IMG/VR virus record: IMGVR_UViG_3300042303_000041
Location: 6,648 to 70,647 of that record
DNA length: 64,000 bases
Source: a virus
Taxonomy: Duplodnaviria; Heunggongvirae; Uroviricota; Caudoviricetes
Direction: 5' to 3' (one strand)
The translations under genes were made by a program, and so were the position numbers. The notes below the pieces were generated by a model. The model was not told where the DNA came from and searched no databases. It saw only the letters and a list, made by a program, of their open reading frames with translations. This document shows, one piece after another, positions 42,779 through 42,908 of this stretch; positions within the stretch are counted from its first letter, which is position 1, and each line of letters starts with the position of its first letter.

Positions 42779-42908
42779 TGGTGGGGATGACGGGATTCGA
42801 ACCACGTACAAGAACTTTTACAGAGTTATAGTGTTAGTGTTGCGGAAACAATTCTACATACAGAATTGACTTTTTACTTTGCTATGCTAACCATTACATC
42901 ACATCCCC
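42779..42908 (-). ncRNA. 130-nt tRNA-like RNA with the anticodon arm replaced by a large insert
   Basis: GGGGAUG:CAUCCCC-ACCA, D-loop AAUGGUUAG, T-loop UUCGAAU; insert AGAAUUG-UUUCCGCAA...UAACUCU-GUA. Confidence 0.7.

What the first reader, a model, noticed from the sequence alone, without database searches (positions are those of the whole stretch)
42779..42908. CCA-ended tRNA body with a family-like motif inserted in place of the anticodon arm
Seen: intact acceptor, D-loop and T-arm, but about 75 nt replace the anticodon arm, including AGAAUUG-UUUCCGCAA...UAACUCU-GUA, a variant of the conserved motif. No group I intron features are visible. Inference: a non-permuted, potentially aminoacylatable counterpart of copy D.
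Basis: partly seen in the sequence, partly recalled or inferred. Interest (0 to 1): 0.7.

Follow-up and report, generated by a model that had tools for sequence, protein, structure and literature searches.

The report
tRNA carrying a Ro60-type docking arm
This lake-phage gene encodes a complete, CCA-ended tRNA-shaped RNA with an extra 54-base arm; that arm is a closed copy of the "handle" on the small RNAs that travel with the phage's Ro60-like ring protein, so it is most likely a tRNA-shaped partner (Y-RNA analogue) of that protein and not a broken, spliced or ordinary tRNA.

Summary
At 42779-42908 (minus strand) there is a 130-nt tRNA-like gene ending in CCA (Rfam tRNA 36.7 bits; ARAGORN misses it). 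Twenty-four homologues (17 distinct sequences) exist in viral and metagenome contigs, always inside phage tRNA arrays.

Covariation supports five helices:
- acceptor stem (5 covarying pairs);
- D stem;
- T stem (2 covarying pairs, plus a conserved bulged pyrimidine);
- a 7-bp hairpin, CAAUUCU/AGAAUUG;

So the anticodon arm is present, with a GUA (Tyr-type) loop that switches to GUG in at least three lineages. The extra 54 nt lie between nucleotides 26 and 27.

That pairing fails: one mismatch is invariant and there is no compensation. AGAAUUG instead pairs upstream. With the following UUUCCGCAA it forms a loop-closed, circularly permuted copy of the family handle (7-bp stem + NUYCNGCAA).

The handle co-occurs with a DUF2828/DUF7788 protein: 6 of 6 related records that have the protein carry it, 0 of 7 without. 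The predicted fold of that protein matches Ro60.

Best reading (0.6): a non-permuted, one-piece YrlA-like Y RNA. I found no sign of splicing. This scan has noted the same design on other DNA. I found no publication describing it.

The parts
42779..42908 (-). Whole 130-nt tRNA-shaped RNA gene (5' G1 at 42908, 3' CCA at 42781-42779)
   Evidence: Rfam tRNA 36.7 bits. Own covariance model R1 scores 158 bits here and 144-169 bits in 24 homologues, against 35 bits or less for ordinary tRNAs.
42902..42908 (-). Acceptor stem, 5' strand GGGGAUG (pairs with 42783-42789)
   Evidence: 7 bp, 100% paired in 17 variants; 5 of 7 pairs show two-sided compensatory changes.
42884..42899 (-). D arm AUGU-AAUGGUUA-GCAU (U8 and G9 at 42901-42900; A26 at 42883)
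   Evidence: Invariant in 17 variants. A14, A15, G18, G19 and A21 are present.
42869..42882 (-). A-rich 5' linker GCAAAGUAAAAAGU (start of the 54-nt insertion)
   Evidence: An A-rich run also precedes S1' in the open handle family.
42849..42868 (-). Closed handle hairpin: S1' CAAUUCU (42868-42862), loop GUAUGU (42861-42856), S1 AGAAUUG (42855-42849)
   Evidence: 7 bp, 100% paired. U-A becomes C-G in 8 of 17 variants. The loop varies in sequence and length, 4-6 nt.
42840..42848 (-). Handle motif UUUCCGCAA, directly 3' of S1
   Evidence: Exact site. Invariant in 17 variants. Fits the family consensus [G/U]UUC[A/U/C]GCAA drawn from 44 open-form members.
42829..42839 (-). 3' linker CACUAACACUA (end of the insertion)
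   Evidence: The most variable stretch of the RNA.
42812..42828 (-). Anticodon-like arm U-AACU-CUGUAAA-AGUU-C; G34 U35 A36 at 42821-42819
   Evidence: ARAGORN calls tRNA-Tyr(GUA) after the insertion is deleted. Two pairs change A-U to C-G together in L102/L109. The 27:43 position is never paired. The loop reads GUG in 4 of 17 variants.
42808..42811 (-). 4-nt variable loop UUGU (U48 could pair with A15)
   Evidence: Invariant. The Levitt pair is inferred from positions only.
42790..42807 (-). T arm ACG(U)GG-UUCGAAU-CCCGU with a bulged U at 42804
   Evidence: 5 bp, 100% paired, 2 covarying pairs. The bulged U or C is kept in all 17 variants.
42779..42789 (-). Acceptor 3' strand CAUCCCC, discriminator A73, encoded CCA
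   Evidence: A73 and CCA are invariant. The next tRNA (Arg-ACG) starts 5 nt downstream.
34521..35957 (-). Presumed protein partner: 478-aa Ro60-like ring protein (DUF2828 + DUF7788, vWA domain with a DxSxS motif)
   Evidence: Pfam hits. PHROG 850 'RNA-binding protein'. AF2 model pLDDT 87.8. The top 13 Foldseek PDB hits are all Ro60/TROVE structures. Co-occurs with the handle.
42386..42490 (-). Copy D: open-handle family member holding a circularly permuted tRNA-like domain (the permuted counterpart)
   Evidence: Read; handle located.
43164..43225 (-). Open-handle family member C
40498..40553 (-). Open-handle family member with an anticodon-loop mimic CUUGUAA
40270..40328 (-). Open-handle family member B
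38218..38424 (-). Long open-handle family member (207 nt)
36001..36096 (-). Open-handle family member directly upstream of the Ro60-like gene

Best explanation
The gene makes a 130-nt stable RNA that is a full tRNA cloverleaf with one extra arm.

Biogenesis (inferred). It is transcribed with the phage tRNA array. It is released like its neighbours: RNase P cuts at G1, and the 5-nt trailer is trimmed back to the encoded CCA.

Docking arm (composition shown, binding inferred). The extra arm hangs on A-rich linkers at the hinge between the D stem and the anticodon stem. It consists of a 7-bp hairpin, the strand UUUCCGCAA and an A-rich opposite strand. It is a loop-closed copy of the handle that, in the phage's other small RNAs, is formed by the paired 5' and 3' ends.

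Partner (inferred). The handle docks onto the phage's Ro60-like ring protein. The particle then presents a tRNA body with a free CCA end and a Tyr/His-type anticodon loop to whatever recognises tRNAs: processing or repair enzymes, exonucleases, or host tRNA-targeting nucleases.

In effect it is a one-piece, non-permuted YrlA-type Y RNA and not a decoding tRNA.
For: - The RNA is real and under selection. Twenty-four homologues (17 distinct sequences) give 96.8% paired cells and 10 pairs with two-sided changes. None of 500 shuffles reaches these values, and slid controls give 0-2 such pairs.
- Handle identity. S1 AG(A/G)AUUG, UUUCCGCAA, the A-rich strand before S1' and G after S1' all fall inside the variation of 44 open-form family members. 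The order of parts is the same as in permuted copy D.
- The loop that closes the handle is free to vary (GUAUGU, GUCUGU, GUCUGA, GAUA, GUAA), as expected of a mere connector.
- Link to the protein. The handle pattern is present in 6 of 6 related phage records that hold the protein and in 0 of 7 that lack it, including one complete genome.
- Distant homologues of the protein (43-45% identity) in other phage lineages have 1 and 3 handle RNAs directly upstream on the same strand.
- The target type occurs only in records that hold the protein, wherever the record is large enough to tell.
- The protein model (pLDDT 87.8) matches Ro60 structures over its full length, E 2e-8 to 1e-5, including Thermus phage phiLo Ro60.
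- Precedent. YrlA Y RNAs mimic tRNA, and M. smegmatis YrlA is cut by RNase P and receives CCA in vivo (PMC4201824). Phage Ro60 binds phage Y-like RNAs (PMC12135203).
- Not a decoder. The anticodon switches GUA/GUG in at least 3 lineages without linked changes. The T-stem bulge is conserved. The phage has ordinary tRNA-Tyr and tRNA-His.
- Context. It always sits inside a tRNA array on the same strand, 5-7 nt before the next tRNA or directly before an open handle RNA.
Against: - No binding, processing or expression has been shown directly.
- The protein does not match Pfam TROVE, and the RNA does not match Rfam YrlA.
- The motif CCGCAA differs from the Y-RNA motifs GNCGAA and GGUCCGA.
- The gene lies 6.8 kb from the protein gene.
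- The co-occurrence counts come from related phages and are not phylogenetically independent.
- One Ro-like-positive relative (G007, 90% complete) lacks this RNA, so it is dispensable to the system.
- Minimum-free-energy folding alone is not significant (z = -1.0). It also cannot separate the anticodon-like hairpin from alternative pairings.
Confidence: 0.6

Rival explanations
1. Bait or decoy. The RNA mainly serves to absorb or report a host tRNA-targeting enzyme, either an anticodon nuclease acting on G34-U35 loops of Tyr/His type or an enzyme acting on the CCA end. The Ro60-like ring, the phage RNA ligase and the phosphoesterase then hold or repair it. This refines the best explanation and does not exclude it.
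For: - C32 U33 G34 U35 A37 A38 are invariant while position 36 toggles A/G.
- Short family members display anticodon-loop mimics: CUUUUAA, CUUGUAA, CUUCUAA, CUGUAAA, CUGUUAA.
- An RNA ligase (31210-32223) and a phosphoesterase inside the tRNA array lie nearby.
- TROVE proteins are discussed as RNA-repair platforms with tRNA-like partners in phages (PMC7824862).
Against: - No nuclease or defence system is identified.
- The host is unknown.
- The family's mimic loops cover several anticodons, so no single target is implied.
- No cleavage or repair data exist.
Confidence: 0.18
2. Working tRNA with an extra arm. The RNA is charged (Tyr or another amino acid) and decodes on the ribosome. The handle only regulates, stabilises or localises it.
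For: - The cloverleaf is complete, with all core tertiary-contact nucleotides, a 7-bp acceptor stem, A73, CCA, and U33 and A37 in a 7-nt loop.
- Its body most resembles the phages' own short tRNA-Leu and tRNA-Gly.
Against: - The anticodon switches GUA/GUG in at least 3 lineages with the same acceptor features.
- The T-stem bulge is conserved where EF-Tu contacts tRNA (established knowledge; an inference here).
- The anticodon stem has only 4 bp, with 27:43 never paired.
- A 54-nt arm sits at the hinge.
- Standard tRNA-Tyr and tRNA-His are present.
Confidence: 0.1
3. Intron-bearing tRNA. The 54 nt are removed, perhaps with the phage RNA ligase sealing the exons, to give a 76-nt tRNA-Tyr.
For: - ARAGORN accepts the sequence as tRNA-Tyr after deletion of RNA positions 27-78/80.
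- The phage encodes an RNA ligase.
Against: - The insertion is at 26/27, not 37/38.
- It is far too small for a group I intron and shows no such core.
- The same module forms free-standing RNAs beside the Ro60-like gene in unrelated phages.
- RNA-library contigs from 3 runs in 2 studies carry the insertion contiguous with the 3' half, and no joint skips it. This is weak evidence, because contigs may derive from DNA.
- The spliced product would still carry the T-stem bulge and the 27:43 mismatch.
Confidence: 0.07
4. Decaying tRNA pseudogene that was hit by insertion of a handle element.
For: ARAGORN does not call it. The Rfam score is low.
Against: Seventeen variants keep every helix through compensatory changes. 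One-sided changes are limited to a single G-U wobble. The insertion itself is the most conserved part.
Confidence: 0.02

Closest known systems
YrlA-type Y RNAs of bacteria and phages with Ro60/Rsr (Chen et al. 2014, PMC4201824; Rfam RF02553)
   Same: - A small RNA that joins a Ro60-docking helix, bearing a conserved single-strand motif, to a tRNA-like D arm, T arm and acceptor.
- Several such RNAs per genome.
- Encoded on the same strand as the ring protein.
- M. smegmatis YrlA becomes open at the acceptor, with CCA, after RNase P cleavage.
   Different: - Here the RNA ends lie at the acceptor, as in a tRNA, and the docking helix is closed by a loop. YrlA has the reverse topology.
- A canonical anticodon arm is also present.
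- The motif is NUYCNGCAA, not GNCGAA.
- There is no RF02553 hit.
- The protein belongs to DUF2828/DUF7788, not Pfam TROVE.
- The gene sits in a tRNA array 6.8 kb from the protein gene.
Thermus phage phiLo Ro60 with Yrl1/Yrl2 (PMC12135203; PDB 9KOP, 9L5Y)
   Same: A phage-encoded Ro60-fold ring with a vWA domain, plus phage-encoded Y-like RNAs. These structures are among the top structural matches of the window's protein.
   Different: - Yrl1/2 have a classic stem-bulge-stem shape with a CGAA motif and paired 5'/3' ends.
- They have no full tRNA body and no CCA end.
- Sequence identity of the proteins is about 15%.
Ordinary bacterial/phage tRNA (Rfam RF00005), e.g. the phage's own tRNA-Tyr(GUA) at 40836-40921
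   Same: Acceptor, D, anticodon and T arms; the identical anticodon loop CUGUAAA; A73; encoded CCA; the same spacing within the array.
   Different: - 54 extra nt between positions 26 and 27.
- A bulged T stem.
- A 4-bp anticodon stem.
- A short variable loop, where bacterial tRNA-Tyr has a long one.
- The anticodon is not conserved.
Stable RNAs of the phage T4 tRNA cluster (species 1 and 2, rnaC/rnaD)
   Same: Non-tRNA stable RNAs encoded among phage tRNA genes and processed together with them (from my own knowledge; not checked here).
   Different: No Ro60-like partner and no shared handle are known for the T4 RNAs. No sequence comparison was made here.

Membership tests
tRNA (Rfam RF00005) | Covariance-model score above the gathering threshold | tested here: met
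   36.7 bits against 29, obtained only with the 64-nt middle skipped. ARAGORN does not call it, even with intron search on.
tRNA (Rfam RF00005) | Four-arm cloverleaf with a 7-nt anticodon loop (U33, purine 37) | tested here: met
   All arms are present and supported by covariation. The anticodon stem has 4 bp plus an unpaired 27:43.
tRNA (Rfam RF00005) | Compact size (about 70-95 nt) with D stem and anticodon stem joined through nucleotide 26 | tested here: not met
   130 nt, with 54 nt inserted between positions 26 and 27.
tRNA (Rfam RF00005) | Anticodon conserved among orthologues (decoding role) | tested here: not met
   GUA in 13 and GUG in 4 of 17 variants, spread over at least 3 lineages.
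tRNA (Rfam RF00005) | Aminoacylation and use on the ribosome | not testable with these tools
   Needs an acid-urea Northern blot and polysome analysis.
YrlA Y RNA (Rfam RF02553) | Match to the family covariance model | tested here: not met
   No RF02553 match at E up to 5 over 38500-45500, or up to 10 over 42700-43000.
YrlA Y RNA (Rfam RF02553) | 5' and 3' ends pair to form the Ro-binding stem; the acceptor-like stem is closed by a loop | tested here: not met
   The topology is reversed. The ends lie at the acceptor and the handle is closed by a 4-6 nt loop.
YrlA Y RNA (Rfam RF02553) | GNCGAAN0-1G motif on the strand beside the stem | tested here: not met
   The motif is UUUCCGCAA. It is similar in position and in part of its letters, but not the same.
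YrlA Y RNA (Rfam RF02553) | tRNA-like D and T arms with tertiary-contact nucleotides | tested here: met
   U8, A14, A15, G18, G19, A21, U54, U55, C56 and A58 are present and nearly invariant.
YrlA Y RNA (Rfam RF02553) | Partner is a Ro60 (TROVE + vWA) protein encoded nearby on the same strand | tested here: inconclusive
   Pfam TROVE gives no hit in the genome. The DUF2828/DUF7788 protein has a Ro60 fold, lies on the same strand 6.8 kb away, and co-occurs with the handle. Binding is not testable here.
Phage 'handle' RNA family (7-bp stem + NUYCNGCAA, partner DUF2828/DUF7788) | 7-bp covarying helix whose AG-initial strand is followed directly by NUYCNGCAA | tested here: met
   AG(A/G)AUUG + UUUCCGCAA. 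The helix is 100% paired with a compensatory U-A to C-G change.
Phage 'handle' RNA family (7-bp stem + NUYCNGCAA, partner DUF2828/DUF7788) | A-rich strand before the other helix strand, and G after it | tested here: met
   AAAAAGU precedes CAAUUCU, and G follows it in all 17 variants.
Phage 'handle' RNA family (7-bp stem + NUYCNGCAA, partner DUF2828/DUF7788) | The helix is formed by the RNA's own 5' and 3' ends | tested here: not met
   It is closed by a loop, so the target is a circularly permuted member.
Phage 'handle' RNA family (7-bp stem + NUYCNGCAA, partner DUF2828/DUF7788) | Occurs in genomes that encode the protein | tested here: met
   G000-G003 hold both the RNA and the protein. Handle pattern: 6 of 6 records with the protein, 0 of 7 without.
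Intron-containing tRNA (group I or bulge-helix-bulge type) | Intervening sequence in the anticodon loop (37/38) with a group I core or a BHB motif | tested here: not met
   The insertion is at 26/27, is 54 nt long, and gives no intron family hit in Rfam.
Intron-containing tRNA (group I or bulge-helix-bulge type) | A spliced product exists | tested here: inconclusive
   RNA-library contigs carry the unspliced form and show no joint across the insertion. Contigs cannot exclude a rare or small spliced RNA.

The most novel reading that the evidence does not exclude
The phage runs a 'tagged tRNA' system. A Ro60-like ring holds, through one universal handle, a set of tRNA parts in every wiring: anticodon-loop mimics, inside-out tRNA tops, and whole tRNAs with an internal handle. 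The whole-tRNA form, with its free CCA end and G34-U35 (Tyr/His) loop, would be a live bait or sensor for host tRNA-targeting defences, and would be held for repair by the neighbouring RNA ligase and phosphoesterase. A further possibility is that open and closed handle forms interconvert by ligation of the handle ends and RNase P opening of the acceptor.
Probability: 0.15. Interest if true: 0.85.

Novelty: new variant of a known kind. Interest (0 to 1): 0.66.

Why it matters
Y RNAs that imitate tRNA are known, but only as inside-out mimics whose acceptor is closed. Why Ro60 partners look like tRNA is still an open question.

Here a conserved, covarying RNA keeps the true tRNA topology: an open 7-bp acceptor stem, A73, CCA and an anticodon loop. 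It carries the docking site as a fifth arm, and its partner is a divergent Ro60-fold protein family (DUF2828/DUF7788) with no described function.

This gives three things:
- a simple, testable system for asking what a Ro60-type ring does with a tRNA body (tether, decoy, repair platform, quality control);
- an explanation for a class of 'tRNAs with inserts' that gene finders miss or would mislabel as intron-bearing;
- a candidate RNA partner, and so a function, for a large family of proteins of unknown function in phages.

Tried and rejected
- Megablast of 41700-44300 against the phage collection found no match.
- An exact 25-mer of the T arm and acceptor found no match in viral contigs, because the acceptor varies.
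- Pfam TROVE gave no hit in the genome. A PDB sequence search with the protein found nothing relevant. The Ro60 link came only from the fold.
- Single-sequence folding was uninformative. The MFE z-score is -1.0, and the MFE breaks the D arm. Energies of the anticodon-like hairpin and the alternative RNAalifold 'V' stem are within about 1.5 kcal/mol of each other, so thermodynamics does not decide between them. Covariation in L102/L109 does.
- Origin of the tRNA body is ambiguous. By halves it is closest to the phages' short tRNA-Leu, with the identical acceptor GGGGAUG and A73 in one of them. By covariance model it is closest to tRNA-Gly(GCC).
- A queuosine/TGT-only idea is not supported. The family's anticodon-loop mimics also include UUU, UGU and UCU, and the phage has no TGT. 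It also lacks RtcB and a CCA-adding enzyme.
- A broad viral scan for other closed-handle tRNAs (TTCAGCAA ... T loop) gave mostly unrelated hits. Only 3 doubtful candidates lacking CCA emerged, so it could not test whether handle-bearing tRNAs are restricted to GUN anticodons.
- RNA runs hold only small shares (0.12 or less) of the stretch, as Logan contigs of relatives. They show presence of the unspliced form in RNA libraries, not transcription, ends or abundance.
- The third distant protein locus (L235) had only 107 nt upstream of the gene and was uninformative.

Full report
**Setting.** The window is part of a 168,097-bp IMG/VR virus record with direct terminal repeats. Its minus strand carries a tRNA array at 39186-44256, with 27 tRNAs called by ARAGORN covering all 20 amino acids, and a permuted tmRNA. 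Two strong promoter-like sites lie upstream of the array. A weaker one (TTGACT-17-TAAATT) lies 130 nt upstream of the target. No terminator-like site separates the target from its neighbours.

**The observation.** Read on the minus strand, 42908 to 42779 is a 130-nt RNA. In order it reads:
- acceptor 5' strand GGGGAUG, then UG;
- D arm AUGU-AAUGGUUA-GCAU, then A26;
- a long middle section;
- T arm ACG(U)GG-UUCGAAU-CCCGU;
- acceptor 3' strand CAUCCCC, then A73 and CCA.

Rfam's tRNA model scores it 36.7 bits (gathering score 29) by skipping 64 nt in the middle. ARAGORN does not call it, even with intron search on. The next tRNA (Arg-ACG) begins 5 nt after the CCA.

**Homologues and structure.**
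- A search seeded on the phosphoesterase gene inside the array brought in 80 related phage loci.
- Exact and gapped DNA patterns then found the RNA in 10 further viral and 13 metagenome loci.
- A covariance model built from the first seven sequences scores 24 homologues at 144-169 bits. A 25th copy is cut off by its contig end. Ordinary tRNAs score 35 bits or less.
- Seventeen sequences are distinct.

On their alignment (A4) a five-helix structure is 96.8% paired, and 10 pairs show two-sided changes. No shuffle out of 500 reaches these values, and slid controls give 0-2 such pairs. The helices:

| Helix | Pairs | Covariation |
|---|---|---|
| Acceptor | 7 bp | 5 pairs covary |
| D stem | 4 bp | invariant |
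| Hairpin CAAUUCU/AGAAUUG | 7 bp | U-A becomes C-G in 8 of 17 |
| Stem AACU/AGUU around loop CUGUAAA | 4 bp | both A-U pairs become C-G in L102/L109 |
| T stem | 5 bp | 2 pairs covary |

The T stem carries a bulged U or C at the same place in all 17 sequences. The pattern that found L102 and L109 left the 4-bp stem unspecified, so that test was unbiased.

Deleting about 52 nt turns the sequence into something ARAGORN calls tRNA-Tyr(GUA), or tRNA-His(GUG) in one relative. The piece UAACU-CUGUAAA-AGUUC, followed by UUGU and the T stem, is an anticodon arm with U33 and A37 plus a 4-nt variable loop, in the canonical place. The anticodon arm is therefore present. The extra 54 nt (RNA positions 27-80, window 42882-42829) lie between nucleotide 26 and the anticodon stem.

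**What the insertion is.** The window holds six small RNAs with a shared handle: 36001-36096, 38218-38424, 40270-40328, 40498-40553, 42386-42490 and 43164-43225. Across the fetched loci I collected 44 distinct members. Their consensus is:
- lead GUUUU;
- strand S1 = AGGWUNN;
- motif [G/U]UUC[A/U/C]GCAA directly after S1;
- a variable interior;
- an A-rich run;
- strand S1' = NNAWCCU;
- tail GUUGU.

The target contains the same elements in rotated order: A-rich run, S1' CAAUUCU, G, a short loop, S1 AG(A/G)AUUG, then UUUCCGCAA. The handle is complete, but it is closed by a loop exactly where the other RNAs have their 5' and 3' ends. That loop varies freely (GUAUGU, GUCUGU, GUCUGA, GAUA, GUAA). 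A regex for this closed form hit only this RNA family plus two weak chance hits in about 1.4 Mb.

Read from the handle, the order of parts is the same as in copy D (42386-42490): motif, T arm, acceptor 3' strand with CCA, acceptor 5' strand, D arm, A-rich run. Copy D is the YrlA-like permuted tRNA mimic. The two RNAs are circular permutations of one design. The target additionally has an anticodon arm in the position of YrlA's 'V' stem-loop.

**The partner protein.** The 478-aa product of 34521-35957 matches DUF7788 and DUF2828 and PHROG 850 'RNA-binding protein'. It does not match Pfam TROVE or any PDB sequence.
- An AlphaFold2 model built on a 62-sequence alignment has pLDDT 87.8 and pTM 0.86.
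- Its 13 best PDB matches are all Ro60/TROVE structures. They align over the full length with TM about 0.5-0.6. They include Xenopus, human and Deinococcus Ro60 and the Ro60 of Thermus phage phiLo.
- The alignment keeps a DxSxS motif, as in the vWA/MIDAS domain of Ro60.

**Link between handle and protein.**
- Among related phage records, the pattern TAGGNNNNNTYCNGCAA occurs 1-6 times in each of five records that hold the protein (G001, G002, G003, G007, G015). The window's own genome, G000, holds the protein and six open handles. That makes six records with both.
- The pattern occurs in none of the seven records without the protein (G006 and G008-G013). G006 is a complete 159,683-bp genome.
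- These records are related phages, so the counts are not independent events.
- Independent support comes from two distant homologues of the protein (43-45% identity) on unrelated contigs, one of them T4-like. They have one and three handle RNAs (7-bp stem + NNNCAGCAA ... G) directly upstream on the same strand.
- The target type itself occurs once each in G000-G003, all of which hold the protein. It is absent from G007, which has the protein and is 90% complete, and from G006, which has no protein.

**Is it spliced or decoding?**
- The insertion site (26/27), its size (54 nt) and the lack of any intron family hit argue against a classical intron.
- Contigs from three metatranscriptome runs in two studies cover 42778-42889 of close relatives with the insertion in place, and no joint skips it. 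Contigs cannot prove transcription or exclude a rare spliced form.
- The anticodon is GUA in 13 variants and GUG in 4. The GUG variants occur on three different acceptor backgrounds (L095/L105, L114, L102). The rest of the loop (C32 U33 G34 U35 A37 A38) is invariant.
- The phage has ordinary tRNA-Tyr and tRNA-His.
- The conserved T-stem bulge lies in the region that EF-Tu contacts on tRNA. That is an inference from general knowledge, not tested here.

Together these points argue against a decoding role. The open 7-bp acceptor stem, A73 and CCA still leave charging possible.

**Comparison with what is known.**
- Chen et al. 2014 (PMC4201824) showed that bacterial and phage YrlA Y RNAs contain tRNA-like D, T and acceptor-like elements. 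They carry a GNCGAA motif near the 5' end that resembles the GGUCCGA contacted by Ro60.
- The same paper showed that M. smegmatis YrlA is cleaved by RNase P and receives CCA in vivo. This gives a two-piece RNA with an open tRNA-like end. The target is a one-piece RNA with that same end state encoded directly.
- The phiLo study (PMC12135203) shows that a phage Ro60 binds phage Y-like RNAs and host PNPase.
- Iyer et al. (PMC7824862) place TROVE proteins of large phages among RNA-repair functions. This fits the RNA ligase at 31210-32223 and the phosphoesterase at 41796-42365.
- Literature searches for DUF2828, DUF7788 and related terms found no description of a tRNA with an internal Ro-type handle.

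**Earlier notes of this scan.** I consulted the sequence and word look-ups after reaching the readings above. They report the same design on other DNA: tRNA-Tyr, tRNA-Asn and tRNA-Asp bodies carrying a permuted 'CAGCAA' module in phages and giant viruses. They agree with my reading. Their hint that such tRNAs all have GUN anticodons could not be tested here.

**Verdict.** The feature is real, conserved and structured. The mechanism is inferred, not shown. I put the Ro60-partner reading at about 0.6. The specific job of the tRNA body (tether, bait or repair substrate) remains open.

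Noticed in passing
window 43353-43526 (spacer between tRNA-Phe and tRNA-His, minus strand): Metatranscriptome contig depth is 500-3500 in two runs, against 5-70 over the rest of the array. This is either a very abundant small RNA or a look-alike of an abundant RNA from another organism.
   Followed up: no
window 42912-43033 (minus strand), just upstream of the target: A 122-nt non-tRNA element closed by a 14-bp helix (CUUAAUGAAGCAUA / UGUGUUUCAUUAAG). Its 3' strand and the spacer before the target are conserved in some homologous loci. A promoter-like site lies at 43070-43042.
   Followed up: partly
window 31210-32223 (-) and 41796-42365 (-): An RNA ligase (PHROG 968) lies 2.3 kb beyond the Ro60-like gene, and a metallophosphoesterase (PHROG 547) is embedded in the tRNA array. 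At least 594 viral-contig stretches encode a relative of the phosphoesterase. Together they look like an RNA-repair kit. The genome has no RtcB, TGT or CCA-adding enzyme.
   Followed up: partly
window 40498-40553 and related loci (L001, L022, L037, L056, L081, L084, L088): Short open-handle RNAs enclose 5-bp stems with 7-nt anticodon-type loops: CUUUUAA (Lys), CUUGUAA (Thr), CUUCUAA (Arg), CUGUAAA (Tyr), CUGUUAA (Asn).
   Followed up: partly
L096 minus strand, 9861-9963 in reverse-complement numbering: An open handle (103 nt) encloses a whole tRNA-Arg(UCU) that ARAGORN calls at 9883-9954. This is a third wiring of handle plus tRNA.
   Followed up: no
L004:6146-6246, L005:7123-7224, L017:4629-4732, L045:3205-3308, L048:1202-1305: CCA-ended tRNA-like genes of 101-104 nt with long extra arms and odd anticodon regions. 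ARAGORN does not call them, or calls them only as intron-bearing. They are unrelated in sequence to the target.
   Followed up: no
window 44017-44084, 42500-42587, 40337-40405 (minus strand): tRNA-like matches seen only by Rfam (tRNA 41.7 bits; tRNA-Sec model 33.9 and 21 bits) and missed by ARAGORN. The element at 42500-42587 lies directly before copy D.
   Followed up: no
L234:5764-5990 and L233:28-106: Distant DUF2828/DUF7788 genes (43-45% identity), one in a T4-like contig, have three and one handle RNAs (7-bp stem + NNNCAGCAA) directly upstream of the start codon.
   Followed up: yes
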